Below, in pieces: positions 1,944 to 31,742 of a stretch of DNA of 64,000 nt. The translations under genes and the position numbers were made by a program. Within the stretch, counting starts at the first letter, position 1. Every line of letters begins with the position of its first letter. The notes beneath the pieces were generated by a model that saw only the letters and a program-made list of their open reading frames with translations, searched no databases and was not told where the DNA came from. Source of the stretch: Candidatus Parcubacteria bacterium (GTDB lineage Bacteria > Patescibacteriota > Minisyncoccia > Minisyncoccales > JAGMDC01); assembly GCA_023131895.1 (NCBI GenBank), contig JAGLYZ010000002.1:43364-107363 (forward strand). Reading direction: 5' to 3'.

Positions 1944-3323
1944 CTATACAATAGCTATCTGTGGATAACTTAATTTATATATATCCCCTGCTCCCATTAT
2001 GATTAGAATTTCTTTATTCTTTAGATTTTGTTTCAAATAATTCTCTGCTTTTTTAATAGATGAGACATACTTGACTTTTTCTCCATATGGATATTTTTTC
2101 AAGTTTTTATTAATTTTTTTAACTAATTTCTCCGAATCTACTTTACTTTTAATCGCCTTGTCTTCTCTGCCGGCAACATCATAAATGTCGGTAATAATCA
2201 ATCTATCAATCCAGCCTTTATTCAATGCCTCTTTAAAAACCTTAACAAAATCATCAAACAAATAATAAGTTCGCTGATATTGATGCGGCTGAAAAACACA
2301 CCAAATTTTCTGTTTGGAAAACTTTTCCCTGCATGCTTTTAAAGTTGCTTTTACTTCTGTTGGATGATGAGCGTAATCAGATATAATTGTTATTTTCTGC
2401 GTAATTCCGCGTTTAGTTCTGTGTAACTCCGCGTGCGTGAGCTCAAAACGGCGCCATGTTCCTTTAAATTCTGACAATGCTTGATAGCTAACTTTATCTG
2501 CAATTTTTAAAGCTCTAGCTATGGTCAAAGCAGCTAAAGCATTATAAATATTATACTCCCCTGGAATTTTCAGAATTTTTCTTAATTTCTCCTTTTCTTT
2601 TTTTTGATTTAATGAAAATACACAGGTCTGACCTGTGTATTTTTTGACTTGGGATGTCAAGATTTGAGCAATATTCTTATCATCTTTGTTAATTACTAAT
2701 ACTCCATTTTTTGGCAAATGTGATATAAACTCGTCAAAAGCTTTTAAGATATTCTTTAAGTTTTTATAATAATCCAAATGCTCCTTTTCAATATTGGTAA
2801 TAACAATAATCTTAGGCCAATAATTTAAAAATGATTCTTCATGTTCGCAGGCCTCAATAATTAAGTATTTGCTTTTGCCCATTCGAAAATTTGAATTCCC
2901 AAATTCTTTTAATTTTGTTCCAACAATTACTGTCGGGTCAAACCCGGCTTTTATTAAAACCAAAGCAGCCATTGCTGTGGTTGTGCTTTTGCCATGGGTT
3001 CCAGTTATGGCAATGGTAGAATACTTTTTTGTTAATTCTCCTAATGCCTCTGGATAAGACAAACATTTAATGCCCAGATTTTTCGCTTCTTTTAATTCTG
3101 GATTATCTTCTTTTACTGCCGGACTATAAATAATTAAATCATGATTTTTGGTTATATTTTTTGCGTATTGACCTATGATAATTTTAATCCCTTTTCTTTT
3201 CAGTAATTTAGTAATTTCAGAAGATGCTAAATCAGAGCCAGAAACTTGCTCGCCTTTTGCTAAACAATATTGAGCTAAAGCAGAAACGCCAATTCCGCCA
3301 ATTCCGATAAAATGAATTTTCAT
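1944..3323 (-). CDS. murC: UDP-N-acetylmuramate--L-alanine ligase
   Basis: 459 aa; N-terminal IHFIGIGGIGVSALA Rossmann motif, Mur ligase central domain TGTHGKSTTT, typical MurC length. Confidence 0.9.
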   Translation of the reverse strand: MKIHFIGIGGIGVSALAQYCLAKGEQVSGSDLASSEITKLLKRKGIKIIIGQYAKNITKNHDLIIYSPAVKEDNPELKEAKNLGIKCLSYPEALGELTKKYSTIAITGTHGKSTTTAMAALVLIKAGFDPTVIVGTKLKEFGNSNFRMGKSKYLIIEACEHEESFLNYWPKIIVITNIEKEHLDYYKNLKNILKAFDEFISHLPKNGVLVINKDDKNIAQILTSQVKKYTGQTCVFSLNQKKEKEKLRKILKIPGEYNIYNALAALTIARALKIADKVSYQALSEFKGTWRRFELTHAELHRTKRGITQKITIISDYAHHPTEVKATLKACREKFSKQKIWCVFQPHQYQRTYYLFDDFVKVFKEALNKGWIDRLIITDIYDVAGREDKAIKSKVDSEKLVKKINKNLKKYPYGEKVKYVSSIKKAENYLKQNLKNKEILIIMGAGDIYKLSYPQIAIV

Positions 3324-3919
3324 TTTAATGATATTGATTCTAATATAGTATATTTAGGACCTGCGCGTTTTAATTCGCTTTCCATTACTTCAATTGAATT
3401 TACTAGAAAGTTTAAAGAAATTTCCTCATCTATCTCCGGTCTTTCTTCTGGTTCCATTTTTCTCCATTCCCAAGCTTTAATTCTACCTAAAGTAATATGC
3501 GGCTTGAATTCCCTGTTTTCTGAAATAAAATTTATTCCAGTATGAATTAAAGATTTTTCCAAATCCTGTTTTAGATTAGCTAATTCTTCTACTTTTTGTC
3601 CTTCTGCCCAGACCATTCTTGGGGGTATTTTTTTAGGAGGGGCGTAGCAAATTCTATCCAAATTTATTGAAAAAGATGAATTTCCTGAAACTGCTTCTTT
3701 TGTAATTTTACAAATTTCTAACAGTTCTTCATCGCGGATAGAACCAATAAAAACTAAAGTAATATGAAGATTATCCGGCTTTACCGATTTAATAGGTAAA
3801 TCTGGCCATTTTTCTTGATAAACTGAAAGTTTCCTTTTAATATCTTCAGGCAGATTTATAGCAATAAAAATTCTTTTCCTCATTAATTTTAGCATAGCAG
3901 AATATTGACTTTTTCTCAA
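3320..3919 (-). CDS. thpR: RNA 2',3'-cyclic phosphodiesterase (2H phosphoesterase, LigT/ThpR family)
   Basis: Two H-x-T-L motifs (HITLVF and HITLGR) characteristic of the 2H family; about 190 aa; overlaps the murC start by 4 nt. Confidence 0.75.
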   Translation of the reverse strand: MRKSQYSAMLKLMRKRIFIAINLPEDIKRKLSVYQEKWPDLPIKSVKPDNLHITLVFIGSIRDEELLEICKITKEAVSGNSSFSINLDRICYAPPKKIPPRMVWAEGQKVEELANLKQDLEKSLIHTGINFISENREFKPHITLGRIKAWEWRKMEPEERPEIDEEISLNFLVNSIEVMESELKRAGPKYTILESISLK

Positions 3920-3934
3920 GAAACTGATTAGATT
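3905..3934 (+). promoter_or_regulatory. sigma70-like promoter candidate for the TFB-like gene (-35 TTGACT, 18-nt spacer, -10 TAGATT)
   Basis: Hexamers read directly about 30-55 nt upstream of the ATG at 3961. Confidence 0.35.
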
Positions 3935-3960
3935 GATTAACAGTTATTTAAAAACTTGAA

Positions 3961-4893
3961 ATGGGAAAAATGAAAGAAAAAGAAGATAAAGAAGAAAATG
4001 ATTGTCCATTAAAAGCTGAACAAATAAAAAAATGTCCTGAGTGCGGTTCTAAGGGTCTGGTACGGAATTATGATAAAGCAGAAATTTTTTGCGAGGATTG
4101 CGGGTTAGTAATAACAGAAAATATCGTTGACCTTGGTCCTGAGTGGCGTGCTTTTGATTTAGAACAGAAGTCCAAACGGGAGAGGACTGGCGCGCCAATG
4201 ACTTACAGAATTTATGATAAAGGATTGAGTACGAGTACATCTGTAAATAAAATACCGGGACTCTATCGCCCGAGAGACTGGCAAATTCACGTTGCGAATA
4301 CAACCGAAAGGAGTTTCATCTTCGCCCTAACTGAGATTGAGCGGATGGCATCTGCGCTTAGACTGCCGGTGAATATCAGGGAGACAACGTCTATGTTATA
4401 CCGCAAAGCGATGAAGAAGCGGCTAATCCGTGGGCGTAGCATAGAAGCAATAACTTCTGCTCTCCTATATATTAGCTGCAGACAGTATAGTGTGCCGCGA
4501 ACATTGGATGAGATTACAGAAATATCAAAAGTCGGGCAGAAAGAGATAAGCCGGGCATATCGCTTCCTTTTACGAGAACTGGACTTGAAAGTTTCGCCTG
4601 CCTCTCCTGCTGATTTTGTGCCGCGTTTCTGTTCCTTGCTTGATTTGGGAGACGATATAAGATCAAAAGCAGTAGAGATAATCAAAAAAGCAGAAGAAGT
4701 GGAACTAACCAATGGAAGAGGACCTATAGGAATAGCAGGAGCTGCTATTTATATCGCTGCGATGATAAGTGGTAAGCATCGTACACAAAAAGAGTTATCG
4801 AATGTTACGGGTGTGACCGAGGTCACAATAAGAAATAGATACAAAGAAATGTCAAAAGAATTAGCGATAGAGGAAATAGATACATTCCTGTGA
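3961..4893 (+). CDS. tfb: transcription initiation factor IIB/TFB homolog (archaeal-type; N-terminal Zn ribbon plus two cyclin-fold repeats)
   Basis: 310 aa. Zn ribbon CPECGS...CEDCG, then near-diagnostic TFB blocks: [66 protein letters not shown]. Local GC about 45-52% versus about 30% in flanks. Confidence 0.9.
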
Positions 4894-5685: not shown

Positions 5686-6753
5686 ATGAAAGAAGCAATA
5701 TTATACAAAAAACTTGCGGACAAAAGAGTTTACCCTGTTAAATCCCCGACAAGTCGTGGTGCGAAGCAATTTAACAGGGTGAAATGCCAGAATTGCGCTC
5801 ATTATTGTGTTATTGAAGAAGGAAAGCGAGGGATTTGCGGTGTCCGAGAAAATATTAATGGAAAACTTTATGCCCTGAATTATGGCAAAGCAATTGCCTG
5901 TAATATTGACCCTATTGAGAAAAAACCTTTATTTCATTTTTTACCAGGCACTCAATCACTATCTATAGCTACGGTAGGATGTAATTTTAGATGTGCTAAT
6001 TGCCAAAATTGGGATATATCCCAAGGTCCAAAACCAAACAAACCAATTTTAGGAGAAGATTTGTCGCCAAGAGAAATTGTTAAAATCGCCAAAGAGAATA
6101 ACTTGCCCTCTATTGCTTATACATATACCTCCCCCACTATTTTTTCTGAATATGCCTTAAATACAATGAAATTGGCCAAAGAACAAGGAATAAAAAATAT
6201 ATGGATAAGCAATGGATTTTGGTCAAAAGAATTATTCGAAATGATTTCTCCTTTTTTAGATGCTGCCAATATTGATTTGAAGGGTTTTTCTGACGATTTT
6301 TATATTAAATACTGCGGCGGCCGTGTTCAGCCAGTTTTAGATACCTTAGAACGCATAAAAAAGAAAAAAATCTGGCTGGAAGTGACTACTTTAGTAATTC
6401 CTAGTTTAACTGATTCTAAAGAAATGTTTGAAAATATTGCTAATTTTATCAAAAACGAATTAGACGCTGAAACGCCCTGGCATATTTCTCAATTTTCCGG
6501 AGCAATTTCCTGGAAATTGCAGCACTTGCCTGATACACCGGTTAAAACATTAAAAATGGCTTATGAAATTGGTAAAAGGGCTGGGTTGAAGTATGTTTAT
6601 ACTGGCAATGTACCGGGATTAGAAAGCGAAAACACTTATTGCCCAAAATGCGGAACTTTGGCAATTGAGCGGCTCGGCTATGCCATAAAACGTTTTGACA
6701 AAAATGGAAAATGCTCAAAATGTAGAGGAGAATTAGATTTAATTTTAAATTAA
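5686..6753 (+). CDS. amrS: AmmeMemoRadiSam system radical SAM enzyme
   Basis: CNFRCANCQN (C-x3-C-x2-C) radical SAM cluster plus an N-terminal CQNCAHYC...ICG cysteine cluster typical of AmrS/PflA-like activases; 355 aa. Confidence 0.8.
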   Translation: MKEAILYKKLADKRVYPVKSPTSRGAKQFNRVKCQNCAHYCVIEEGKRGICGVRENINGKLYALNYGKAIACNIDPIEKKPLFHFLPGTQSLSIATVGCNFRCANCQNWDISQGPKPNKPILGEDLSPREIVKIAKENNLPSIAYTYTSPTIFSEYALNTMKLAKEQGIKNIWISNGFWSKELFEMISPFLDAANIDLKGFSDDFYIKYCGGRVQPVLDTLERIKKKKIWLEVTTLVIPSLTDSKEMFENIANFIKNELDAETPWHISQFSGAISWKLQHLPDTPVKTLKMAYEIGKRAGLKYVYTGNVPGLESENTYCPKCGTLAIERLGYAIKRFDKNGKCSKCRGELDLILN

Positions 6754-22547: not shown

Positions 22548-23757
22548 ATGTTAAGGCAACGCCTCTTTTATTGATACGGCCTGTTCTGCCGATGCGGTGC
22601 ACGTAATCTTCGTAAGTTGCGGGCACGTCGTAATTAATCACATGGCTCACATCAGGGATATCAAGCCCCCGAGCCGCCACATCTGTTGCCACTAAAATAC
22701 TGATATTGTCTTCCTTAAACGATTTTAAGGATCTAAGGCGGCTGGCATAGTTCTTGTCTCCGTGGATTGAATCAGCTTTAAAACCGTATCTCGCTAGATT
22801 GTTAGATAATCTTTCCACGCCGTACTTGGTTCTGCCAAAAATAAGCACTTTGCGGAATTCGTCTTTCGCCAATAAATTACAAAGTGTCCCTATCTTTCCT
22901 CTGCTTGAAACTCTAACTATGTCTTGATAAATGTTTTCCGGCGTATCTCCGGTTTTAACAAACACGGTAACAGGTTTGTTGAGAAATTCGTTAATGAGCA
23001 GCTCAGCTTCTCGGGTCATAGTCGCTAAAAAGCAAAGCGCGTGGCGCTTTGGAGGCATTAGAGACGTAATAAATTTTATATCCGCGATAAACCCCATATC
23101 CAGCATTCGGTCGGCTTCGTCTAAAATAATTGTGGAAAAAGCGGAAAGATTTATAAATCTCCGTTGGATCAAATCCTTTAATCTCCCCGGAGTGCCGATA
23201 ATAAAATGATTGCGGTAATTTTTCAATTCGGAAATTTGGCTACGGATGGAAGTTCCGCCAACGCAGCAGGCGGAATAAATATTAATGCCGCGCGAAAAAC
23301 TCTTAAACTCCTGGTTGATTTGTGTCGCCAGCTCGCGAGTAGGCGCGATAATCAGCACTTTTTCTCGAGGATTTAACAATACTTTCTGTATCAAAGGGAT
23401 TAAAAAAGCGCCGGTTTTGCCAGTACCTGTATTGGCAATGCCCACCACGTCAAGGCCTTGTAAAACATGCTCAATGATTTTATCTTGAATGGGAGTGGGC
23501 GTTTTAAATCCTTTAGCCAGAATATTGGCTCTCAAACGCTGATCAATATTAAAATCTTGGAACTGGTGAGTCGGCGCGAAAACTTTCGCTTTTTGAGCAA
23601 CAACGTTTTTGTTAATAAACCGATCAATGCTGATTTCCTTAGCAAAACCCGAGCGTCTTTTGCGAACGCCGAAGTTGGAATATTTGCGGAATGAATGTTT
23701 GTCAAAATGTCTTGTTACCATAAATAAAATAAAATGCCGCACAAAGTCTCGCGACAT
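22537..23757 (-). CDS. DEAD-box ATP-dependent RNA helicase
   Basis: Q motif (GFKTPTPIQ), motif I (NTGTGKT), DEAD (ILDEADRMLDMGF), SAT-like (ATMT), motif VI (HRIGRTGR); overlaps the typA start by 11 nt. Confidence 0.9.
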   Translation of the reverse strand: MSRDFVRHFILFMVTRHFDKHSFRKYSNFGVRKRRSGFAKEISIDRFINKNVVAQKAKVFAPTHQFQDFNIDQRLRANILAKGFKTPTPIQDKIIEHVLQGLDVVGIANTGTGKTGAFLIPLIQKVLLNPREKVLIIAPTRELATQINQEFKSFSRGINIYSACCVGGTSIRSQISELKNYRNHFIIGTPGRLKDLIQRRFINLSAFSTIILDEADRMLDMGFIADIKFITSLMPPKRHALCFLATMTREAELLINEFLNKPVTVFVKTGDTPENIYQDIVRVSSRGKIGTLCNLLAKDEFRKVLIFGRTKYGVERLSNNLARYGFKADSIHGDKNYASRLRSLKSFKEDNISILVATDVAARGLDIPDVSHVINYDVPATYEDYVHRIGRTGRINKRGVALTFVE

Positions 23758-23922
23758 TACCCTTTCATCATACTAAATATACAACCTTTTGTCAATAAAA
23801 ATCGTCCAACGATGGACTCTTTTATTTACTAGACCTCTCAGTGGCCTGCACTGAGCTTGTCGAAGTGCTGGCAACATCGGTCTAGAACTCGTATTTTAAG
23901 GGGAAAATTGGGGCTTTTTAGA

Positions 23923-24012
23923 GTGTCTCATTGACGTGTCTCAGTCAGGGCGTTTTGTTCAGGAAATGAGACAAATGAGACACTACTTAAGGGTATATTT
24001 GAGTGTCTCAAA
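23923..24012. repeat. cluster of five TGAGACAC/GTGTCTCA half-sites, including the 38-bp palindromic unit AAATGAGACACTACTTAAGGGTATATTTGAGTGTCTCAAA (copy 1)
   Basis: GTGTCTCA at about 23923, 23936 and 24003; TGAGACA(C) at about 23967 and 23976; lies in an unusually long (about 500 bp) intergenic region. Confidence 0.6.
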
Positions 24013-24259
24013 ATCTATGATTGTCCAAGTCCTGAAGAATTTTAAGGTCCGCCTTACCAATCCTAAATTTCGGGGGAGTTTTACTCCTCTCAAATTTTTT
24101 AAATTTATGTTTCAGTGTTTGGGTTTATTTTCTAAAATTACTGTGTCGTAATCTTTACTTAAATCGTCCACCTCAAAAGACAGCCCTACATCAAAATTAT
24201 CCTTTCTTATTTCAGCTCCGTTTCTGTTAATTATCTTTTTTACTGGCAACGTTCAGTTC

Positions 24260-24502
24260 TTAACCCTTATATTTTCTCGGATCTGCTCCGTAAGTATGTT
24301 CTGTCTGAATTTTGCCAGTTCTTCCGTGTATTTTTATCTGGCTTGGTTCTTGCTTTCTTGCAATTCCCCGGGCTTTTTTAATTGCTTTTTCTTTATTTTC
24401 AAACACAGCAATCGGTTGTTTGTTTCCTTCTTTGGTTATCTTCCAGTCTTTTACCCCTCCTTTTTTATTTGGAGTAATATGAATTACTAGCCTTTTAGAC
24501 AT
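24260..24502 (-). CDS. DUF2188-family protein
   Basis: 80 aa; pattern LVIHITP..GG.WKI.KEG...PIAVFENKEKAIKKARGIARKQEPSQIKIHGRTGKIQTEHTYGADP matches the DUF2188 consensus (hVvP..gGW.v....a.ra...f.tq.eAi..A..lA......l.iHgrdGrIr...syG.DP). Confidence 0.6.
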   Translation of the reverse strand: MSKRLVIHITPNKKGGVKDWKITKEGNKQPIAVFENKEKAIKKARGIARKQEPSQIKIHGRTGKIQTEHTYGADPRKYKG

Positions 24503-24598
24503 AATAATTATTTCCTTTGATTAAGATTATTTGAGGTCGACCTTTATAAATTATCTTTAGCAAAATATCTCAATTCACTAAACTGAGATATCTTTAAT

Positions 24599-25762
24599 CT
24601 ACTTAATAATCCCTCCTTCTTTTTCTATTGTTTTCATTTTATCCTTTATCCCCTCCTCTAATTTTTTATATTTATCCCAAGTAAGCAACCAAACCAAGGC
24701 AATGGAATCAATGGCATCAGCCAAAATATAAATACTAATTTTATCAAGTTTATCTTTATACTCTGAATCTTCTAAAATTTTCATTTTTTCATATTCTTGT
24801 TTCTTAATGCCTTCCGGAATAAAATCAGTGGAAATTAAATAAGAAACAAAACAAACCGCTTTGACATAATCATATATCTTTTTGTTCCCCTTGCCTAAAA
24901 TTTTCTTATCAGCAAGTTTTCCTTTAACTTTTTCTATTTCCCACTTTCTTTTACTTAATTCATCTATTACTCCATAGAGAAAAGATTCTTTGAACTTTTC
25001 TTTCAGCTTTTTATTTTTAATAAACTCAGGCGCACCATCAATATCATAATCAAAAACATCTCTTTTTTTATCAAATTCGTAAAATTTTATTATTTCTTTA
25101 TCCCAGTATTTCTCCATATCTGGATGAATAGTTGAGGGTCCATAAAAGTCTCTATCATCGCAATGCGGCGGCACATGAGCGTCAGATAAATAATGACTTA
25201 ACATTAAGAAATAAAGCGCTATTTGATTATCATTGAACATAATATTGGAACCTTTTGGCTCCTTTTTTTGAATCAAAACCATATCTCTAATAGCGTGAGA
25301 TAGGGCCTCACATCTATCAGGAAGCACATATTTAGACTTTCTGCAGACTTTTTCTTTAAGTCTGGATTCATTAATTCCAAGTTTTCTCAACGAACACAAA
25401 TGATTCGGTGTTCGATTCTTGAATTCTTTAGCTTCTTTTCTTTCTTTCCTTGTTGACGGTTTTTTAAGTTTAAAGGTATGCCCGCCAGTGAGGTTATCAG
25501 AAATAACGTTGTCCGGAAACCAAGCCCCTTTAAGAAATGCATCTTTGTGTTTATCAAAAAATTTCACAAAGCTTTCAGCTTGTTTTTTAAAATGATCGTC
25601 AAAATCGTCGCCGAGAAAATAGCCCCTGAAATTTTTACCAAGAAAACTCCGCCTAAAAGATTTATATCTTTTAGGCCCCTTTAATCTTTCTAGGGCCATT
25701 AAGGCTAGCCAAGCATGAGCTATTTTTTTCATGTTTATTAATATCCTACCATCTATCTCCAC
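24599..25762 (-). CDS. Zn-dependent phospholipase C / S1-P1 nuclease superfamily-like protein
   Basis: LSHYLSDAHVPPHCDD matches the PLC/P1 zinc-binding block (L-H-Y-x-x-D-x-x-x-P-x-H); N-terminal HAW...; 387 aa. Confidence 0.45.
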   Translation of the reverse strand: MEIDGRILINMKKIAHAWLALMALERLKGPKRYKSFRRSFLGKNFRGYFLGDDFDDHFKKQAESFVKFFDKHKDAFLKGAWFPDNVISDNLTGGHTFKLKKPSTRKERKEAKEFKNRTPNHLCSLRKLGINESRLKEKVCRKSKYVLPDRCEALSHAIRDMVLIQKKEPKGSNIMFNDNQIALYFLMLSHYLSDAHVPPHCDDRDFYGPSTIHPDMEKYWDKEIIKFYEFDKKRDVFDYDIDGAPEFIKNKKLKEKFKESFLYGVIDELSKRKWEIEKVKGKLADKKILGKGNKKIYDYVKAVCFVSYLISTDFIPEGIKKQEYEKMKILEDSEYKDKLDKISIYILADAIDSIALVWLLTWDKYKKLEEGIKDKMKTIEKEGGIIK

Positions 25763-25998
25763 AACTTAATACATAGTAGTAAATTGTAGTAAATTTTCAG
25801 GATTTTTTAGTTTGATATATTAATAATGGAGTTGGCAATAATACCTTCTGAGATACCACTTATGGGTTCCACTTGCGGGTGTGGTAAATACACCTTAGAA
25901 CCTAAAATAGAGATATTTTGAGAGGTTTTTGTATATTTTTAGAAATTCCTAATGCCTCTATGTCAGTCTTTATGCTTTATATCAAAATTATAGCACAA

Positions 25999-26036
25999 AT
26001 GAGACACTACTTAAGGGTATATTTTCGTGTCTCAAA
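25999..26036. repeat. copy 2 of the 38-bp palindromic unit (AAATGAGACACTACTTAAGGGTATATTTTCGTGTCTCAAA; 36/38 identity with copy 1)
   Basis: Direct comparison with 23975-24012; lies between the helicase gene stop (26068) and the PLC-like gene start (25762). Confidence 0.6.
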
Positions 26037-26067
26037 TGCACCAGCGTGTAATCTTACGAAACATTGA

Positions 26068-27909
26068 TTATTTGAAATTATCCTTGGTAATTCTTTCGAT
26101 CCTCAAATGGCTACTAATCTTTTTTAAAAATGGCGACATCGCTTCGGTTCTCAGATATCTAGACTTTTCATATCTTTCATGAAAAGACAAAATAACATCT
26201 TGTTTTGCTCTGGTTAGGGCAACATATAAAACCCTGAGTTCTTCTTTTATATCATGATTACGCGCAGGTATAAAAGTATCATTTAGCCATAGCACAAAAA
26301 CAAATTCTGCCTCTATCCCTTTAGCTGAATACATTGTTGTTACCAGAATTTTATCTTCTTTTGGAATCTCATCTTCTGAATCTAAAAGGCCAAATTTTTC
26401 ATGAATAAATTTGATGACCGAGCCAATGGAATAAAGTTTCTGTGTTTCTTCGTTAAGTGTAATATTCGCTTGAGAAAATAATGTTTCATCAACTAGTAAG
26501 TGGGGGAAAGCTTTTAACTCCTTCTGAAATTCGTTGATATTATCAATAACTCCGTGAAGCTTATTAAGACTAGTAAAGATTTCTTTTATAATTGGGGTTT
26601 CTAAGGTAGAGCAATAATCGTAAAGGGATTTTCCGACTTTCATAGCCTTTCGTCTTATATCAGTAATCTCCTTCGCTTTTAGTCCAACTATTTTTAACCA
26701 TTGTCTAAGGGCAAGACTATCAGAAGAATTTAACATTTTTAATACCAACAGAAGTCGCCAATAATTATCAGGAATATGAGCTTTTTCTTTTAGTTTTGTA
26801 GGTAAGGAAAATTCCGTTTCTAAAGTAGACGCTACTGTTTTTACAAATTTTGAAATAGGACAAAGAACCATAAAATCATTATAATTAAGCGACTCCCCGT
26901 TTCTATTGGTCTTTTTTCCCATTATCTCTTTTATTAACGAGGCAACTTTTTTAATTTGGATACCACTTTTTGTACATTGTAAAGTTAAAATCTTTTGTCC
27001 GTTATCAGCTGGAATATTAACTTTTCCACCAAGATAATTTTCACCCAAAATTAAGGATTGTGATGCTCGTAGAATATGGGGTGGTAATCTGTGAGAATCG
27101 GGAAAATATACTTTCTCCCATTTTTCTGATCCCAAACGTTCTCGTATTCCTTGGGGATATGCATGGCGAAAACCATAAATACTTTGGGCATCATCGCCCA
27201 CAATTATAACTTCGCTTCCCCATTTAAAACTTAATAAATCAATTAATTTTTGATCCATTGGATTCAAATCTTGATATTCATCAATTTGTAAAAATGCTGA
27301 CGGAAAATTAACTTGTTCTTTTTCCAGAATATCGCATGCGTATTTAACAATTCCGTCTAAATCAAAAGTATTATAAAACTTAAATAAGCAATCAAGGTGT
27401 CTTAAAACTTCTTGTCGTCTATCTTCAGGTATGGGACAATCTGTCCGAAAAGAACGAGTGCATTGATAATAATTAATATCTAAATCCAAACGATCTACAG
27501 AAACCTCAAGTTTAAGATCGTCAATTAATTCATTCAATAAAATCTTATGTTCGTTTCGGTCTTTTATTAAGATCGAGAATTTTGAATCTCGTTCAATTAG
27601 AGATGCATATTTATGAACTATGCTCTTAGCATAGGTATGTAAGGTACTAATCCTTGGAAACTCAAAATGAACTTTTACTCCATCGAAAGCATCCTCGCCA
27701 ACCTCTTTTCTTACTTTTTTATCGGTATCTCTACGACTTGTCCGAGTAAATGTAATAAATGATACTTCACGATTAGGATCGTCAATAAGTAGTCCTATCA
27801 TCCGTTCTACTATAGTACTAGTTTTTCCCGTGCCAGGCGCAGCGATAACAATAAGGGGTTTTCCCTTATGATCAATCACTGTTTTTTGTTCTTTACTTGG
27901 AAAACCCAT
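26068..27909 (-). CDS. SF1 UvrD/Rep-like DNA helicase (no nuclease domain)
   Basis: Motifs AAPGTGKT, IDEYQDLN, VGDDAQSIYGFR, TTMYSAKGIEAEFVFV, VALTRAK; 613 aa. Confidence 0.8.
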   Translation of the reverse strand: MGFPSKEQKTVIDHKGKPLIVIAAPGTGKTSTIVERMIGLLIDDPNREVSFITFTRTSRRDTDKKVRKEVGEDAFDGVKVHFEFPRISTLHTYAKSIVHKYASLIERDSKFSILIKDRNEHKILLNELIDDLKLEVSVDRLDLDINYYQCTRSFRTDCPIPEDRRQEVLRHLDCLFKFYNTFDLDGIVKYACDILEKEQVNFPSAFLQIDEYQDLNPMDQKLIDLLSFKWGSEVIIVGDDAQSIYGFRHAYPQGIRERLGSEKWEKVYFPDSHRLPPHILRASQSLILGENYLGGKVNIPADNGQKILTLQCTKSGIQIKKVASLIKEIMGKKTNRNGESLNYNDFMVLCPISKFVKTVASTLETEFSLPTKLKEKAHIPDNYWRLLLVLKMLNSSDSLALRQWLKIVGLKAKEITDIRRKAMKVGKSLYDYCSTLETPIIKEIFTSLNKLHGVIDNINEFQKELKAFPHLLVDETLFSQANITLNEETQKLYSIGSVIKFIHEKFGLLDSEDEIPKEDKILVTTMYSAKGIEAEFVFVLWLNDTFIPARNHDIKEELRVLYVALTRAKQDVILSFHERYEKSRYLRTEAMSPFLKKISSHLRIERITKDNFK

Positions 27910-27935
27910 AAAAAATTATTTACTAGTCAACTTGA

Positions 27936-28118
27936 TTAGATCTTCTTCTTTGATTTATATCTTTGAGAATTTACTCTCCTATCAATTTTGAAGAGTAAAT
28001 CAAAAAATCCGACAAGATTATTGGCTGCTTCAAAAGTTTCTTGTCTGCTTAACTTTTTACCATAATCTTTTTCAAATATTTTCTGAAATCTTTTAATGGT
28101 TTCTTCTGAAATTTGCAT
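27936..28118 (-). CDS. hypothetical small protein (60 aa)
   Basis: ORF sandwiched with small spacers in an apparent operon 28722->26068. Confidence 0.3.
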   Translation of the reverse strand: MQISEETIKRFQKIFEKDYGKKLSRQETFEAANNLVGFFDLLFKIDRRVNSQRYKSKKKI

Positions 28119-28143
28119 GGATTATTTTTTCCCTTTCTAAAAA

Positions 28144-28722
28144 TCATATTTTTAATAAAAGAGGTTTTCGACTTCTGTCGGTCGTGATTTTAATGATTGC
28201 TTTCTGTAATAATTGTTCATATGTTTTAGGTACTTTTATCTCCTCTTTTTTAAAAGAAATAGGTCTCCAATAACTAAAAAATATCCGTTTATATGTTTTT
28301 AATAAAAAATCAACTCGAATAAACTTTTCTGATTGATGTTTTAAGAAAATTGGTAAAAATATAGGTTTTCTTTCTAAACTTTTCTTTTCATCAATAAGTT
28401 GATCGACAATCATCGCTTCATTTTTTTTATTTTCTTGAATTGCTTCACAAATTTTTACATAATTAGATTTACATCTATAATTATCTTTCCCTATCCATTC
28501 TGCTTGAATATTCTCAATTATTAAATTTTCCTTTGAAGCATTAACTAACTTTAAAGTCATAAACCAATCAAGCATAGAGAATCTATCAATAGGTATAGTT
28601 AAATCAAACCCTGCAGCACTCACAGTAGCCGGCACAATACTTACCGAAAACTGCCCGAATGAGACTGGTTTTACTTTGTTTATATCTATTATTTTATCTA
28701 TTTTTACTAAATTTACATCCAT
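28144..28722 (-). CDS. hypothetical protein (192 aa)
   Basis: First gene of the apparent three-gene operon with the SF1 helicase; no recognisable motif. Confidence 0.4.
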   Translation of the reverse strand: MDVNLVKIDKIIDINKVKPVSFGQFSVSIVPATVSAAGFDLTIPIDRFSMLDWFMTLKLVNASKENLIIENIQAEWIGKDNYRCKSNYVKICEAIQENKKNEAMIVDQLIDEKKSLERKPIFLPIFLKHQSEKFIRVDFLLKTYKRIFFSYWRPISFKKEEIKVPKTYEQLLQKAIIKITTDRSRKPLLLKI

Positions 28723-28903
28723 TTTAATTTTTCTTTTTTATGTTTCCTTTGTTTTTTCTGTACCTAGACTCCCAACTCTGATTTAATTTTTTCTCGTATT
28801 TGATATGTAAATACCTCTGTTAAGGGAATAACCTGGAGACAATTTGGACATTTTATTGTTTGTTCTAGAATAGGTTCTTTTTTCAATTAATTTTAACTAT
28901 TAA

Positions 28904-31261
28904 TTATATTTCTAGATCTCCTAATGCAGTTATCATTGGAAGTAAGGTTGGGGAAATCGCTCTTGAAAATTGTGAAATTTTCTCAAAAACCGACATAGCA
29001 CCAACTTTTGCGTCTTTAAAGGTTTTTTCTTTTTCAGCTTTTTTGTCAAAATCAAGGAAAGATATACCCAAAAGAACCATACCATACTTAAATCTTGCTT
29101 CTAAAATTTTAGGGTCAGTTTTTATATTTCCTTTTATCTCCATTTGAAGATAAATATTATCCATATTTATGTAAAAATCGTATCCTGCCTCCTCTCCCGC
29201 ATCTAATACATACAAAGCGCTTTTTTCATCGAACTTATATTTTTCCCACTCGTTTCTTCTCACCTCACAGATGTTAGGAATATCAAGATGAGCCGAGTCT
29301 TGTCTATCTGAACCTTTTTTCTTACCGGGAGACTTTTTCTTTTTATTCTCTCCATTATTATTTCCTTCGTTTTCCTGCGGTTGATCTATAATTATGCAAA
29401 ATTCATTTAAAAATGGTTCAACCCGGGTTATATCAGACACTTCTGATTGAAAGTATAGCTTGTCCCCGATTTTTACATCGGACAGCATTTCGATTGTTAA
29501 CGTGGCAATACCATTCCACAAATTTATAGAATGGTTTTTGGTAGCTATATTGTTAATTTTAATGATTAACTCGCCAGGTTCTTTGTCGCGATTAAAATAA
29601 TCATTTTCAGCATCGGTTTCATATTGGACACGAAATTTTGTATTACTTATGGGACACACTTTTGGCTTTGATTTTGTATATTCTTTATCTAATTTGAAAT
29701 AAGTAGGAAATTCCTTGCCTTTAAATTTCCCTTTCCCTGATACCCCCGTAAGCTTAAACGGATTTTTAATTCTTATACCTTTTGTAAAAAGGCTTGATAA
29801 TGATGGGGATTTTTTTATTATATTCTCTAAGATATCCGCTAACGGTTTTGAATCCTGCAACTTGTTTTCAATATCTTCTCTTCTCCTTTTTTCCCTCAAG
29901 TCTCTAAGTCCTTGGTGATTTTTAATAATATCTTCAAGGGACGCTTCGATTTCATCTTGCATCGGTCCACCGCTCAACCTGTCACGACTATTCATAAACA
30001 AATCTTCTTGCATTCTTCTATTAATTTTTGAACAATCTACCATAACCAAAATACTATCTACGAGGTAACCCATACGAACTGACTGCCGTTCAAAGAATGA
30101 CTTTAACAAAAAACCGTGCGTTTGGCCATTAACTGTAAAAATAATTCCTTCTTGGCCGGCATAAGTTTCTCTTTTTCCGGACTTAAATGCAAAAATTGAA
30201 TAATCCATTTTTTGTCCCCTGATAACAAGTTCACCAGAGCTTGGAAAGTTATCTTCAAGATTTTCTCGTTTATCTTCATCAAGTCTAACACTCAATCCGG
30301 AAAGTATTTTCAAGGGGCTTTTCTCATATCTAACATCGGCCACTTTTATAGGAAGAGCAATATTTGGCATCAAAAGTGAAAGTCTATTATGCAAGTGACG
30401 TGTGGCATCAGATCTTAAGCGACCTGTCCCTATTTGGTATTCATAAACTTTTACAAAAGTTCCGTGAGTTATAGGTTTTTTGTATGGCCGTATATCCTCT
30501 CCGGGCAATAACGGCAGAGACGATGAATTAAAAGAAAGAATTTTACCACCGGGAGCGAGATAAATAAAAACAGAACTTCTCATTTGACCAACTGGACTTT
30601 TCCTTCTAATAATTGTCATACCCCATTTATCATCTATATTTTCTTCTTTTATTCCAGGGTCTCTCTTTGATATGATTAGCTGTAAATTATGTTCCGGACT
30701 ACCAAATCTAAAAACTCCCGTTCCGCCCATTCCAAATTTACCTTGCACAAACTGAATTTTACTTTTATTACCCCTATTAAGAGAAAGAAAAGTATTAAGA
30801 AAAGATTTTGGTGACTGTCCTTCGCCTAAATCAACTATTGAATATGAAGGGTTTGCATTAGTCCCTTTTTCACCAGATGCAATTAAAAAAATATTTTCAG
30901 CAATTTTCGATCTTGTACTAGCGTCAATTAAAGATAACTTACCATTATAAATACCAAAATACTTTTTTTGGGCTTCGGCTATGTTTTTTGGTGCAGCGTC
31001 ACTTTCGGGCTTGATCCCGCTCCTCAAACATTCTCGCATTAATACCGCATCTACAGAATTAATAATTTTTTCAACGAGAGCAGTATCTGGTGCGCTCTGC
31101 TGATTACCGATAGTTGACCAATTTCCCTGACTCTCGTCAATTTCCTTCCACGTATTCTCGTCTTTCCATAAATTAAAACTATTTAATACTCCGATAACTT
31201 CTTTTTCTGTTTCTGCTTTTGCTAATAAAAGCGTTAGATTTTTGATATCTTCATTTACCAT
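28904..31261 (-). CDS. GHKL/Bergerat-fold ATPase domain protein (HATPase_c_3-like, MORC/Hsp90-like ATP-binding site) with about 550-aa uncharacterised C-terminal region
   Basis: N-box EKIINSVDAVL (E-x3-N-x2-DA), G1 box IVDLGEGQSP (D-x-G-x-G), G2 box GKFGMGGTGVF in the N-terminal 200 aa; 785 aa. Confidence 0.6.
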   Translation of the reverse strand: MVNEDIKNLTLLLAKAETEKEVIGVLNSFNLWKDENTWKEIDESQGNWSTIGNQQSAPDTALVEKIINSVDAVLMRECLRSGIKPESDAAPKNIAEAQKKYFGIYNGKLSLIDASTRSKIAENIFLIASGEKGTNANPSYSIVDLGEGQSPKSFLNTFLSLNRGNKSKIQFVQGKFGMGGTGVFRFGSPEHNLQLIISKRDPGIKEENIDDKWGMTIIRRKSPVGQMRSSVFIYLAPGGKILSFNSSSLPLLPGEDIRPYKKPITHGTFVKVYEYQIGTGRLRSDATRHLHNRLSLLMPNIALPIKVADVRYEKSPLKILSGLSVRLDEDKRENLEDNFPSSGELVIRGQKMDYSIFAFKSGKRETYAGQEGIIFTVNGQTHGFLLKSFFERQSVRMGYLVDSILVMVDCSKINRRMQEDLFMNSRDRLSGGPMQDEIEASLEDIIKNHQGLRDLREKRRREDIENKLQDSKPLADILENIIKKSPSLSSLFTKGIRIKNPFKLTGVSGKGKFKGKEFPTYFKLDKEYTKSKPKVCPISNTKFRVQYETDAENDYFNRDKEPGELIIKINNIATKNHSINLWNGIATLTIEMLSDVKIGDKLYFQSEVSDITRVEPFLNEFCIIIDQPQENEGNNNGENKKKKSPGKKKGSDRQDSAHLDIPNICEVRRNEWEKYKFDEKSALYVLDAGEEAGYDFYINMDNIYLQMEIKGNIKTDPKILEARFKYGMVLLGISFLDFDKKAEKEKTFKDAKVGAMSVFEKISQFSRAISPTLLPMITALGDLEI

Positions 31262-31265
31262 ATTT

Positions 31266-31487
31266 CTATAATTTAAATTTTTTATGTTTAGGGAAGTGAA
31301 ATTTTCCTTTTACTTCTCTCAATTTAAAATCAATTACATTAAAAATCTTTTTAATTTCTTCTTCATTATATTGGTAGGCACTTCTATTGGCACAGTTACC
31401 AAGAACCTTAAGTCTTTTTAGAACCTCATTAGTCCTATATGTGGCTAGTCTTTTAAACCTTTCTCTTTTTTCGTTTTGTTTAGTCAT
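31266..31487 (-). CDS. hypothetical basic protein (73 aa), first gene of the operon with the GHKL ATPase
   Basis: ORF 4 nt upstream of the GHKL gene. Confidence 0.4.
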   Translation of the reverse strand: MTKQNEKRERFKRLATYRTNEVLKRLKVLGNCANRSAYQYNEEEIKKIFNVIDFKLREVKGKFHFPKHKKFKL

Positions 31488-31521: not shown

Positions 31522-31552
31522 ATACGATAAGGATATGATATCCTTATCGTAT
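31522..31552. promoter_or_regulatory. perfect 31-bp palindrome ATACGATAAGGATAT-g-ATATCCTTATCGTAT (15-bp arms), candidate operator about 35 nt upstream of the 73-aa gene
   Basis: Arms read directly; perfect complementarity. Confidence 0.5.
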
Positions 31553-31622
31553 TGTCAATAGTCTTGCCTGTGGATAACTTTTAGTTGATTTTTTTGGCAA
31601 TTTTTGGCAGAAAATAAAAACT

Positions 31623-31668: not shown

Positions 31669-31742
31669 TGGCTGCCGGGTTAGGATTCGAACCTAAATAG
31701 ACAGCTCCAAGGGCTGTTGTCCTACCGTTAGACGACCCGGCA
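31669..31742 (-). tRNA. tRNA-Gln (anticodon TTG), CCA encoded
   Basis: Cloverleaf folded by hand: acceptor UGCCGGG/CCCGGCA (U1:A72, G73 as in bacterial tRNA-Gln), anticodon stem ACAGC/GCUGU with loop CCUUGGA (unusual C33), T-arm AGGUUCGAAUCCUA. Confidence 0.75.

What the first reader, a model, noticed from the sequence alone, without database searches (positions are those of the whole stretch)
23758..26067. 38-bp palindromic unit present twice (36/38 identical) plus three extra half-sites, bracketing a DUF2188 and Zn-PLC/P1-nuclease-like two-gene cassette
AAATGAGACACTACTTAAGGGTATATTT(GA/TC)GTGTCTCAAA occurs at 23975-24012 and 25999-26036. Each copy is an 8-bp inverted repeat TGAGACAC...GTGTCTCA around a conserved 20-nt core. 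The first locus carries three more half-sites within 60 bp, inside an atypically long (about 500 bp) and partly GC-rich intergenic region that also contains a CAGTGgcctgCACTG hairpin. The copies are direct repeats flanking genes 24260-25762, as cassette boundaries, att-like sites or a shared operator for a dimeric regulator would be. Spacing of 2 kb and the absence of a repeat-spacer array exclude CRISPR.
Basis: seen in the sequence. Interest (0 to 1): 0.55.

Follow-up and report, generated by a model that had tools for sequence, protein, structure and literature searches.

The report
Conserved end-module of tRNA-inserted genomic islands
The twice-occurring 42-bp palindrome is real. It is the best-conserved core of a roughly 150-bp DNA module that marks one end of mobile genomic islands inserted next to tRNA genes throughout the Patescibacteria (CPR), not a boundary specific to the two genes it brackets.

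Summary
A 42-nt direct repeat (23971-24012 and 25995-26036, 40/42 identical) carries TGAGACAC-N19-GTGTCTCA, and three more half-sites lie upstream of copy 1.

The unit is not local. Public genome and metagenome scans found about 170 related sites, nearly all in Patescibacteria. They share the layout ATGAGACAAA-TGAGACAC-loop-GTGTCTCA, preceded by conserved blocks and a tRNA-3'-end-like piece.

One flank is housekeeping. The other recurrently carries mobile-element genes: large serine recombinases, an uncharacterised ~210-aa Zn-ribbon protein, ParB-methylase and terminase. That flank ends at an intact tRNA-Gln or tRNA-Ser, with a repeat of the tRNA 3' end beside the module in several loci.

In the window, 23.83-31.67 kb fits such an island at tRNA-Gln. 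It holds two module copies in tandem, the second decayed except for the unit.

Close homologues of the 377-aa gene (with DUF2188 in three of four loci) occur without any repeat, and relatives of the adjacent DEAD helicase lack the module.

The most likely function (inferred) is a protein-binding promoter/operator at the island's recombinase-proximal end. RNA hairpin/terminator and recombination-site readings remain possible. No Rfam family or paper describes it.

The parts
23804..23817 (.). Bidirectional terminator hairpin GTCCAACGATGGAC with T-runs on both sides. It marks the approximate host-side boundary, just upstream of the DEAD-helicase promoter (TTGACA-17-TATGAT, 23795-23767).
   Evidence: Relatives L248 and L251 have the same terminator-promoter arrangement directly upstream of their DEAD genes and no module.
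23837..23890 (-). Degenerate tRNA-Gln-like 3' fragment plus flank. It includes the T-loop-like GGTTCTAGACC motif (23878-23888 on the + strand) and the CAGTG..CACTG hairpin (23839-23853).
   Evidence: Weak local alignment to the 3' end and flank of the intact tRNA-Gln (34 nt; 5 of 300 shuffles reach the score). The homologous position in L184, L133, L079 and L159 carries clear tRNA 3'-end repeats.
23866..24011 (+). Island-end module, copy 1 (full). It runs from the tRNA-like motif through TTTTAAGGGG, two inverted boxes and the GTCTCAGTCAGGGC block to the tandem boxes and the palindromic unit.
   Evidence: An nhmmer profile built from 20 modules of other genomes hits here with E 2.3e-33.
23923..23943 (+). 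Two inverted boxes, GTGTCTCA (23923-23930) and GTGTCTCA (23936-23943). The second lies inside the conserved cGTCTCrGTCrGGG block.
23967..24010 (+). Core of copy 1: box1 TGAGACA (23967-23973), box2 TGAGACAC (23976-23983), 19-nt loop TACTTAAGGGTATATTTGA with a -10-like TATATT (23994-23999), and box3 GTGTCTCA (24003-24010).
   Evidence: The same layout is seen in about 170 loci.
23971..24012 (+). 42-nt direct repeat, copy 1.
24072..24100 (+). Terminator-like hairpin GGGGGAGTTTTACTCCTCT followed by a T-run on the + strand, about 60 nt after copy 1. It could end a short + strand transcript starting in the unit.
   Evidence: That such a transcript exists is inferred, not shown.
24260..25732 (-). Cargo block 1: DUF2188 (24260-24502) and the 377-aa Zn-PLC-related protein (24599-25732).
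   Evidence: The same genes occur without units in L255-L258.
25897..26034 (+). Island-end module, copy 2 (decayed). Remnants AGAACC, TTTTGAGAGG and CCTCTATGTCAG precede an intact box2-loop-box3; box1 is missing.
   Evidence: nhmmer E 1.4e-9 with the same profile. A match to the tRNA-Gln variable loop/T-arm, TCTATTTTAGGTTCTAA, lies just to its left. Most of the score comes from the unit itself.
25995..26036 (+). 42-nt direct repeat, copy 2. It starts 31 nt after the stop codon of the UvrD-like gene on the minus strand.
25987..25995 (-). Extended -10 TGCTATAAT directly abutting copy 2 on the gene strand; a candidate promoter for the 377-aa/DUF2188 operon.
   Evidence: Read from the sequence. 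The same TGCTATAAT or TGCTAGAAT element sits at this position in modules of L076, L033 and L085. Not tested.
26068..31487 (-). Cargo block 2: GajB-like UvrD helicase (26068-27909), 60-aa protein (27936-28118; homologous to the N-terminal domain of the ~210-aa family), 192-aa, 785-aa and 73-aa proteins.
   Evidence: The 192-aa + 60-aa pair lies next to a full module in L254.
31669..31742 (-). Intact tRNA-Gln(UUG); the far boundary of the island.
   Evidence: A tRNA-Gln or tRNA-Ser in this position and orientation recurs in 17 loci.

Best explanation
The unit (tandem TGAGACA boxes, TGAGACAC, a 19-nt loop with a -10-like TATATT, and inverted GTGTCTCA) is the conserved core of a roughly 150-200-bp module. 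The module sits at one end of integrative genomic islands and prophage-like elements that insert at the 3' end of tRNA-Gln or tRNA-Ser genes in Patescibacteria.

Shown:
- The module family exists phylum-wide.
- It lies between housekeeping DNA and variable, mobile-element DNA.
- The opposite end of the variable side is an intact tRNA, and a repeat of the tRNA 3' end lies beside the module in several loci.
- Modules occur in tandem, each with its own cargo.
- The window has two module copies and an intact tRNA-Gln 7.7 kb away.

Inferred:
- The window region 23.83-31.67 kb is a composite island. It was built by tandem accretion of two island segments, each keeping its end module. It no longer carries a recombinase of its own.
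- The unit works as double-stranded DNA. It is an array of binding sites for an island- or genome-encoded sequence-specific protein. The leading candidate is the ~210-aa Zn-ribbon/HTH-like family whose gene starts 30-40 nt after the unit in several relatives.
- The sites overlap outward-reading promoters: -10 TATATT inside the loop on the + strand, and TGCTATAAT abutting the unit on the - strand.
- The unit therefore acts as an operator controlling expression at the recombinase-proximal end of the island, and possibly recombination directionality.
- Its near-identity in two otherwise decayed modules reflects continued binding by the same factor.
For: Distribution:
- 66 of 120 genome hits to the bare palindrome are Patescibacteria and share the extended layout.

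The module is accessory:
- It is absent from 15-21 kb around the DEAD helicase in three relatives at 79-83% identity.
- The profile hits the window only at 23866-24011 and 25897-26034.

Mobile-element association, all on the box3 side (Pfam):
- large serine recombinase in 17 loci
- ~210-aa family in 19 loci
- ParB-methylase in 12, TerS-like in 7, TerL in 5
- housekeeping genes recur on the other side

tRNA boundary:
- 24 of 26 tRNAs on that side are on the reverse strand; 8 are Gln and 9 are Ser.
- Repeats of the tRNA 3' end: L133 38/40, L184 62 nt, L079 31/34, L159 21/22, each with 0 of 300 shuffles reaching the score.

Tandem modules: L159 has two 2.9-kb units of module + recombinase + different cargo, 83% identical over module and recombinase. 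L210 and L067 are similar. L254 has one full and one partial module 7.6 kb apart.

DNA-site reading:
- The blocks are conserved in sequence, and RNAalifold finds no covariation and no structure beyond the palindrome.
- The boxes are in 10-bp phasing.
- In parallel units the boxes change together: TGGGACA, TGGAACA, TGTTACA, TGGCACA, TCGGACA.

Promoter position:
- The ~210-aa gene starts 30-40 nt after box3 in L009, L174, L156 and L194.
- TATATT-like hexamers occupy a fixed loop position.
Against: - No protein has been shown to bind the unit. The ~210-aa family has only a sub-threshold HTH_17 hit (E 0.14), and the window encodes only a 60-aa N-terminal-domain homologue.
- The window island has no recombinase, and its tRNA-fragment repeat is weak (5 of 300 shuffles).
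- Island GC content is not distinctive.
- 68 of 167 loci have a gene on the opposite strand ending within 120 nt of the unit. The hairpin is moderately stable (-12.5 to -15 kcal/mol; z -3.5 and -4.5 on the gene strand) and is followed by a U-rich tract. This fits an RNA-level terminator role.
- Box3 variants GTGTCTTA (11) and GTGTCTCG (5) would keep G-U pairing on the + strand, although these sequences are not independent.
- The -35 region of the proposed + strand promoter does not match the consensus.
- About 40% of metagenome hits lack a recognisable box3.
Confidence: 0.55

Rival explanations
1. The unit is itself a recombination site: an attB/attP/attL/attR-type site for the large serine recombinases or an unknown recombinase. 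New segments would insert at the loop between box2 and box3, and the two copies in the window would be the products of such an insertion.
For: - Size and symmetry (11-19-11 bp in most loci) resemble serine-integrase att sites.
- Recombinase genes start 110-340 nt after the unit in L143, L159 and L146.
- Conservation often stops inside or just after the loop: 50 of 127 hits lack box3, and L224 breaks exactly at the loop end.
- The only two differences between the window copies lie at the loop/box3 junction.
- Box2-box3 spacing falls into two classes, about 10-12 and 18-20 nt.
- Tandem units bracket single cargo blocks.
Against: - In L159 the homology between tandem elements begins about 185 nt outside the unit, at the tRNA-like end, not in the unit.
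- Clear direct repeats of these islands are tRNA 3'-end copies 70-330 bp from the unit.
- The loop carries a conserved asymmetric sequence rather than a central dinucleotide with symmetric flanks.
- The tandem direct half-site (box1) and the two upstream inverted boxes are not features of serine-integrase sites.
- Most unit-bearing loci show no recombinase in the DNA available.
Confidence: 0.15
2. The unit acts as RNA. On the gene (minus) strand it would form an 8-bp hairpin followed by UUUGUCUCAUUU that terminates or processes the upstream cargo operon. Alternatively it would be part of a small RNA or attenuator in which the boxes form alternative hairpins (inverted boxes with box1/2, versus box2 with box3).
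For: - A reverse-strand gene ends within 120 nt of the unit in 68 of 167 loci, including the UvrD-like gene at copy 2.
- Hairpin energies are -12.9 and -15.0 kcal/mol with z -3.5 and -4.5 on the minus strand.
- The 231-nt region folds better than all 200 shuffles (z -3.8), pairing the inverted boxes with box1/2.
- A terminator follows the module on the same strand in many loci.
- Boxes covary between unit types, and G-U-compatible box3 variants exist.
- The left part of the module can be drawn as a tRNA-like acceptor/T-arm minihelix on that strand.
Against: - RNAalifold on 21 modules finds only the palindrome, with no compensatory changes and a weak consensus energy of -7 kcal/mol.
- A 19-nt loop and a 50% GC 8-bp stem are atypical for intrinsic terminators, and the terminator scan did not call it.
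- Terminators do not need a phylum-wide invariant sequence or a conserved loop.
- Three to five copies of the same box per module, including direct repeats at helical phasing, fit protein binding better than a single helix.
- No Rfam family matches even at E 10.
Confidence: 0.2
3. The repeats are a genome-specific repetitive extragenic palindrome (REP/MITE-like element), or a recent local duplication with no function.
For: The repeats are palindromic and intergenic, placed just downstream of genes, and flanking sequence similarity is negligible.
Against: - There are only two copies in 64 kb, and one or two per contig elsewhere.
- The same sequence is conserved across classes of a whole phylum, together with about 100 bp of adjacent conserved blocks.
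- It is absent from syntenic positions in close relatives.
- 40/42 identity inside otherwise decayed modules argues for constraint.
Confidence: 0.05

Closest known systems
tRNA-targeting genomic islands and prophages (direct repeat of the tRNA 3' end at the far junction; tandem accretion at one tRNA)
   Same: An intact tRNA-Gln or tRNA-Ser sits at one end, and a 20-60-bp repeat of the tRNA 3' end (plus flank) sits at the other end in L133, L184, L079 and L159. Cargo is variable and defence-like, the islands are absent from relatives, and elements occur in tandem.
   Different: The recurrent recombinase is a large serine recombinase rather than a tyrosine integrase. Many islands, including the window's, show no recombinase. 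The conserved box module next to the repeat has no described counterpart.
SCC elements of staphylococci (Ccr large serine recombinases, insertion at the 3' end of rlmH/orfX, composite islands separated by short direct repeats, recombinase-less pseudo-SCC elements). Recalled from general knowledge, not tested here.
   Same: Serine-recombinase-borne islands insert at the 3' end of a conserved gene without destroying it. They accumulate head-to-tail, some units lack the recombinase, and repeated boundary sequences separate cargo blocks.
   Different: The target is a tRNA gene. The repeated 42-bp unit is internal (70-330 bp from the junction repeat) and has a box-array architecture. The host phylum is different, and no experimental data exist.
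Integrase-promoter and attachment-arm control by excisionase/regulator proteins (KplE1 TorI at attL/intS, PMC2951348; P2 Cox and 186 Apl binding arrays of direct repeats, from general knowledge)
   Same: An array of short direct and inverted repeats at about one-turn phasing sits between the attachment repeat and the first element gene. It overlaps promoters, and a candidate small DNA-binding protein is encoded next to it.
   Different: No binding has been shown. The candidate protein (Zn-ribbon plus weak HTH_17) is unrelated in sequence. Serine recombinases are not known to use arm-type sites.
Integron attC sites and gene cassettes
   Same: An imperfect palindrome lies directly after a promoterless-looking ORF, with repeated copies between co-oriented cargo genes.
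   Different: There is no RYYYAAC/GTTRRRY core and no IntI. The unit sequence, including its loop, is conserved across a phylum. It belongs to a larger module with a tRNA-like piece.
Rho-independent (bidirectional) terminators
   Same: A hairpin followed by a U-rich tract lies immediately after stop codons, between convergent or co-oriented transcription units.
   Different: The loop is 19 nt, the stem GC is modest, the sequence is invariant across a phylum, the loop is conserved, and extra copies of the half-site are present.

Membership tests
CRISPR array | At least three regularly spaced identical repeats of 24-48 nt, separated by unique spacers of similar length | tested here: not met
   There are two copies 2024 bp apart with protein-coding genes between them. 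No CRISPR family was found in the Rfam scans.
Integron attC / gene cassette | R''/R' core sites (RYYYAAC ... GTTRRRY) at the ends of an imperfect palindrome | tested here: not met
   The unit ends are AAATGAGACAC ... GTGTCTCAAA; no GTTRRRY is present.
Integron attC / gene cassette | An IntI tyrosine recombinase with attI at the head of the array | tested here: not met
   No such gene lies in 14-36 kb of the window. The recurrent neighbours elsewhere are serine recombinases.
REP / BIME / REPIN elements | Tens to hundreds of dispersed copies per genome, specific to a species or genus | tested here: not met
   There are 2 copies in 64 kb and 1-2 per contig in other genomes. The sequence is conserved across classes of a phylum.
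tRNA-integrated genomic island | An intact tRNA gene at one boundary, oriented with its 3' end towards the island | tested here: met
   tRNA-Gln lies at 31669-31742 on the minus strand. The same arrangement is seen in 17 loci.
tRNA-integrated genomic island | A direct repeat of the tRNA 3' end at the distal boundary | tested here: inconclusive
   In the window there is only a weak 34-nt alignment at 23837-23870, reached by 5 of 300 shuffles. It is clearly met in L133 (38/40), L184 (62 nt), L079 (31/34) and L159 (21/22).
tRNA-integrated genomic island | A site-specific recombinase encoded in the island | tested here: not met
   None is found in the window island. Large serine recombinases are present in 17 related loci.
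tRNA-integrated genomic island | Absence from the corresponding site in related genomes | tested here: met
   Three relatives (DEAD helicase 79-83% identical) have neither the module nor this gene set upstream of the helicase. Synteny with DnaX/tRNA-Gln is not kept, so a clean empty site was not found.
Large-serine-recombinase att site | A 40-50-bp imperfect inverted repeat located exactly at the element boundary (the crossover point) | tested here: not met
   The size and symmetry fit. However, the unit lies 70-330 bp inside the tRNA-type repeat, and the homology between tandem L159 elements starts about 185 nt outside it.
Large-serine-recombinase att site | Recombination by the cognate enzyme | not testable with these tools
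   This needs an in vitro or in vivo assay.
Intrinsic terminator | A GC-rich stem, a loop of 3-8 nt and a U-tract | tested here: inconclusive
   A U-rich tail is present, but the loop is 19 nt and the stem is 8 bp at 50% GC. The consensus scan did not call it. The free energy is -12.5 to -15 kcal/mol.
Any Rfam RNA family | A covariance-model match | tested here: not met
   There is no hit at gathering threshold in the window or in 18 loci. There is nothing relevant at E up to 10 in 23700-24300.
Structured non-coding RNA (novel) | A conserved secondary structure supported by compensatory changes | tested here: not met
   RNAalifold on 21 modules predicts 11 pairs, none with changes on both sides. 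Covariation is seen only between different unit types.

The most novel reading that the evidence does not exclude
The box arrays may be the recognition sites of a previously unrecognised family of island-encoded DNA-binding regulators or recombination-directionality factors: the ~210-aa Zn-ribbon/wHTH proteins and their 60-aa relatives. Their specificity would be set by a 2-3-nt core inside a fixed TG-NN-ACA frame. That would explain why arrays of units with different cores (TGAGACA, TGGGACA, TGGAACA, TGTTACA, TGGCACA, TCGGACA) sit side by side. Together with the neighbouring large serine recombinases and the tRNA-end repeats, they would form a Patescibacteria-wide, modular integration and immunity system. 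Such a system would give the first defined att/recombinase/operator parts for genetics in these uncultivated bacteria.
Probability: 0.25. Interest if true: 0.7.

Novelty: new variant of a known kind. Interest (0 to 1): 0.55.

Why it matters
Patescibacteria (CPR) make up a large share of bacterial diversity, yet almost nothing is known about their mobile elements, gene regulation or genetic tools.

A short, phylum-wide sequence signature that flags one end of tRNA-inserted islands would have three uses. It could (i) delimit defence islands and prophage-like elements in fragmented MAGs. It could (ii) nominate serine recombinase/attachment-site pairs for engineering. It could (iii) identify a candidate operator and its binding protein in organisms with very few recognisable transcription factors.

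For this window specifically, it re-assigns a 'two-gene cassette with private boundaries' to a 7.9-kb composite island at tRNA-Gln. The island carries defence-like cargo: a GajB-like helicase, DUF2188/PDC-S16 and a Zn-PLC-related protein.

Tried and rejected
- **Known RNA families.** The Rfam gathering scan of the window and of 18 loci, and an E<=10 scan of 23700-24300, found nothing relevant. tmRNA, SRP, RNase P and 6S were considered from sequence resemblance and dropped. ARAGORN finds no tmRNA.
- **TIGR-Tas arrays.** The paper was read (PMC12045711). The architecture differs (36-nt units, 9-nt spacers, Nop-domain protein nearby) and no Tas gene is present.
- **LexA/SOS box.** lexA lies near the element in L067 and L053, but no TGAGACA box sits upstream of lexA in L067.
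- **HUH/rolling-circle origin with iterons.** No Rep gene recurs among the neighbours.
- **Host regulatory element of the DEAD-box helicase.** Rejected because relatives lack it.
- **A single conserved neighbouring gene.** The first clustering of the four nearest ORFs found none. Recurrent families emerged only with 168 loci and +/-5 kb.
- **Composition as evidence of foreign origin.** Not informative.
- **Viral contigs.** The palindrome with loop core gave 0 hits. The 18-mer gave 3 contigs.
- **Literature.** Searches for the motif strings and for CPR promoter, sRNA or prophage work gave no description of the element.
- **Clean empty site.** Searched through DEAD-helicase homologues; synteny is not conserved, so none was found.
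- **Sequence search of the 377-aa protein against PDB.** No hit.
Full report
**1.

TGAGACAC-N19-GTGTCTCA occurs exactly twice in the 64-kb window, at 23976-24010 and 26000-34. It occurs in none of 100 dinucleotide-preserving shuffles. With extension, the repeat is 42 nt: ACAAATGAGACACTACTTAAGGGTATATTT(GA/TC)GTGTCTCAAA, at 23971-24012 and 25995-26036, 40/42 identical, spaced 2024 bp.

Six of the seven TGAGACAC 8-mers in the window lie in these two loci, against 0.5 expected. The first locus adds GTGTCTCA at 23923-30 and 23936-43, and TGAGACA at 23967-73. The CAGTGGCCTGCACTG hairpin is at 23839-53.

All genes from 14 to 33 kb are on the minus strand. In order they are:
- DnaX
- tRNA-Gln (31669-31742)
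- 73-aa, 785-aa, 192-aa and 60-aa proteins
- a GajB-like UvrD helicase
- copy 2
- a 377/387-aa protein
- DUF2188
- copy 1 inside a ~500-bp spacer
- a DEAD-box helicase, TypA and an ABC-F protein

The source is a Nealsonbacteria-like MAG, GCA_030630045.1.

**2. The unit is not local**

Of these, 66 are Patescibacteria (Saccharibacteria, Paceibacterota, Nealson-, Andersen-, Kerfeld-, Nomurabacteria and others). They share much more than the pattern searched: aATGAGACAAA-TGAGACAC-loop-GTGTCTCAttt, and upstream blocks such as cGTCTCrGTCrGGGc, ttttgaAGGGg and cGGTCTaGAAC.

The loop is partly conserved (TAyTTAAGGGTATATTT in Paceibacteria-type modules, nGAAACGGCTATATT in Saccharibacteria), with a TATATT-like hexamer at a fixed position. 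A second sub-type has a 12-nt loop, TATAAAAAAGGA, followed by GATATAGTTTGATATAG.

Other units with the same layout use different box cores: TGGGACA, TGGAACA, TGTTACA, TGGCACA, TCGGACA, TGCGACA. They sometimes sit side by side with a TGAGACA unit (L014, L028, L067, L110).

No Rfam family matches, and no paper in the library contains the motif.

**3. What surrounds it**

I oriented 168 non-redundant loci on the unit and clustered all ORFs within 5 kb.

The side beyond box3 recurrently carries mobile-element genes, mostly on the forward strand:
- a ~210-aa protein with an N-terminal ~55-aa domain, a Zn-ribbon-like CxxC pair and a sub-threshold HTH_17 hit (19 loci)
- large serine recombinases with Resolvase + Recombinase + Zn_ribbon_recom domains (17 loci)
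- ParB-N6/N4 methylase fusions (12 loci)
- a small HTH, terminase-small-like protein (7 loci)
- terminase large subunit (5 loci)

The other side carries housekeeping genes (ABC-F, TypA, RF2, FtsX).

tRNA genes on the mobile side are almost always on the reverse strand (24 of 26). They are dominated by tRNA-Gln (8) and tRNA-Ser (9), 0.9-7.7 kb from the unit. The window's tRNA-Gln at +7.7 kb is one of them.

In several loci the DNA just outside the module is a direct repeat of that tRNA's 3' end plus its flank: L133 38/40, L184 62 nt at ~84%, L079 31/34, L159 21/22. In each case 0 of 300 shuffles reached the score.

These are therefore integrative islands or prophage-like elements inserted at the 3' end of tRNA-Gln or tRNA-Ser. 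The module is the island end distal to the intact tRNA. The 'GGTCTAGAAC ... GCCAGCCA' part of the module reads on the reverse strand as a T-loop-to-CCA tRNA-like 3' end. It is Gln-like (A72, G73) in W-type and Saccharibacteria modules, and Ser-like (..CTCCGCCA) in the other sub-type.

**4. The window in this frame**

A profile HMM built from 20 modules of other genomes hits the window at 23866-24011 (E 2e-33) and at 25897-26034 (E 1.4e-9), and nowhere else.

The second hit shows that copy 2 is preceded by decayed remnants of the same module (AGAACC, TTTTGAGAGG, CCTCTATGTCAG). A 17/18 match to the variable-loop/T-arm of tRNA-Gln lies just beside it. Much of that score comes from the unit itself.

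Left of module 1, the sequence aligns only weakly with the 3' end and flank of the intact tRNA-Gln (5 of 300 shuffles reach the score).

Three relatives whose DEAD helicase is 79-83% identical have the same terminator-promoter arrangement upstream of the helicase. They have no TGAGACA box in 15-21 kb. The module is therefore accessory DNA.

A complete Nealsonbacteria genome (L254) has the 192-aa + 62-aa gene pair, then one gene, then a full module. A partial module lies 7.6 kb away. This mirrors the window's block: 785-aa, 192-aa, 60-aa, UvrD, copy 2.

Tandem arrangements of 'module + cargo' are common:
- L159 has two 2.9-kb units (module + serine recombinase + different cargo), 83% identical over module and recombinase.
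- L210 has two full modules 850 nt apart with a 65-aa gene between them.
- L067 has a full module, a 185-aa gene and a solitary unit whose loop is almost the window's.
- L051 and L113 each carry two same-orientation units 3.6-4.5 kb apart.

I conclude that 23.83-31.67 kb is a composite island at tRNA-Gln. It is made of two accreted segments that each keep an end module and have lost their recombinase. This is inference; the weak points are the faint tRNA repeat, the lack of a recombinase, and the undistinctive GC content.

**5. The bracketed genes are cargo**

The 377-aa protein has close homologues (78-81%) in four other loci. In three of them (L255-L257) DUF2188 follows as in the window; in L258 the gene stands without it, beside tRNA-Arg and tRNA-Lys. 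No unit or module lies within 8 kb of any of them.

The family is spread over Patescibacteria, DPANN archaea, Phycisphaerae and Chloroflexota. Some remote members carry PF00882, Zn-dependent phospholipase C.

**6. How the unit probably works**

Several points favour a double-stranded-DNA, protein-binding role.

- The conserved blocks are conserved in sequence. RNAalifold on 21 modules predicts nothing beyond the palindrome, with no compensatory change.
- There are three to five copies of the same 7-mer per module, with two in direct repeat at a 10-bp period. That is typical of arrays bound by small winged-helix or ribbon-type regulators and excisionases (general knowledge). In parallel units all copies change together.
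- In L009, L174, L156 and L194 the ~210-aa gene starts 30-40 nt after box3. Its promoter must therefore lie in or on the unit, where the conserved TATATT-like hexamer sits between box2 and box3.
- On the other strand, an extended -10 (TGCTATAAT at 25995-25987 in the window; the same in L076, L033 and L085) abuts box1.
- The window's 60-aa protein is homologous to the N-terminal domain of the ~210-aa family (tblastn E 3e-10 to 8e-5).

I therefore propose that the unit is an operator overlapping divergent promoters at the recombinase-proximal island end. Its nearest analogues are the control of intS at attL by TorI in KplE1 (PMC2951348) and the Cox/Apl box arrays. No binding or transcription data exist, so I give this 0.55.

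**7. Rivals**

*RNA hairpin or terminator on the gene strand.* In 68 of 167 loci a reverse-strand gene ends within 120 nt of the unit. The hairpins have energies of -12.9 and -15.0 kcal/mol with z of -3.5 and -4.5, and are followed by a U-rich tract. Some box3 variants keep G-U pairing. Against this: the 19-nt conserved loop, the invariant sequence, the extra boxes and the lack of covariation.

*A recombination site in its own right.* The size and symmetry fit, recombinase genes lie close by, and conservation often breaks at the loop/box3 junction. The two window copies differ only there. Against this: the unit lies 70-330 bp inside the tRNA-type repeats, and the homology between tandem L159 elements starts about 185 nt outside it.

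*A REP-like repeat or neutral duplication.* This is unlikely given the copy number and the phylum-wide conservation.

**8. Novelty and value**

tRNA-inserted islands, tandem accretion and operator arrays at element ends are known kinds. New here is a sequence-defined, Patescibacteria-wide end module. It comes with a tRNA-like piece, a box array with interchangeable cores, an associated uncharacterised Zn-ribbon/HTH protein family, and large serine recombinases at tRNA targets. It is useful as a marker for island boundaries in CPR MAGs and as a source of candidate genetic parts.

I rate it moderately interesting (0.55), as a new variant of a known kind.

Noticed in passing
window 31522-31558 (minus strand): TTGACA is followed by a perfect 31-bp palindrome, ATACGATAAGGATATCATATCCTTATCGTAT. 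It lies upstream of the 73-aa gene that heads the island operon. This is a second, unrelated operator-like site overlapping a promoter.
   Followed up: no
window 31568-31586 (minus strand); L067 5921-5945: The 19-mer AACTAAAAGTTATCCACAG contains a perfect DnaA-box, TTATCCACA. It sits about 10 nt upstream of the -35 of the island operon promoter. The same 19-mer sits upstream of the lexA promoter in a Minisyncoccales genome.
   Followed up: no
window 26068-31487: The island cargo looks defence-like: a GajB-like UvrD helicase without GajA, and unknown 785-aa, 192-aa and 60-aa proteins. DUF2188 matches PADLOC candidate PDC-S16. The 192-aa + 60-aa pair recurs next to a module in a complete Nealsonbacteria genome (L254).
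   Followed up: partly
L127 (IMGVR_UViG_3300020195_001307): A 9117-bp unit is repeated head-to-tail (5363 of 5363 overlapping bases identical). It carries the module, a ParB-methylase, small and large terminase, a ribonucleotide reductase and NUDIX, but no capsid genes. It may be a small circular phage-like element or satellite assembled as a concatemer.
   Followed up: partly
L014 (minus-strand positions 3721-4034), L028 (6000-6260), L067 (3078-3110), L110, L151, L243: Runs of three to five units share the same box1-box2-loop-box3 layout but have different box cores (ATGTTACA, TGGCACA, TGGGACA/TCGGACA, TGGAACA, TGAGACA). The order is conserved between two genomes.
   Followed up: partly
L131 1760-1897; L180; L143: On the reverse strand, the left part of the module can be drawn as a tRNA-like acceptor/T-arm minihelix (7 bp + 4 bp, T-loop UUCNAGA, 3' GCCA). 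Its G-U pairs work only on that strand. In L131 it sits 5 nt upstream of a genuine tRNA-Ser.
   Followed up: partly
L011 742-857; L015 1682-1813: LOOT RNA (RF03000) matches above the gathering score lie 1.5-3.7 kb from the element in two Patescibacteria loci.
   Followed up: no
window 24599-25732 and homologues P0147-P0266: The 377-aa protein family is shared at 58-68% identity between Patescibacteria, DPANN archaea (Woesearchaeota, Nanoarchaeota) and Phycisphaerae, and at about 40% with Chloroflexota. This suggests cross-domain horizontal transfer among episymbionts.
   Followed up: no
L159 (minus-strand positions 2912-3070 versus 6038-6197): An inverted partial copy (160 nt, 76% identity) of the module's left end lies just upstream of the first of the two tandem recombinase-bearing elements. 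It may be a remnant of a further element in the opposite orientation.
   Followed up: no
L253 (ERZ23498665 scaffold_74409): In a sibling sample the UvrD-like gene following the 192-aa + 60-aa pair is called as only 168 aa, with a separate 281-aa gene after it. This points to a frameshift or population variation in the island.
   Followed up: no
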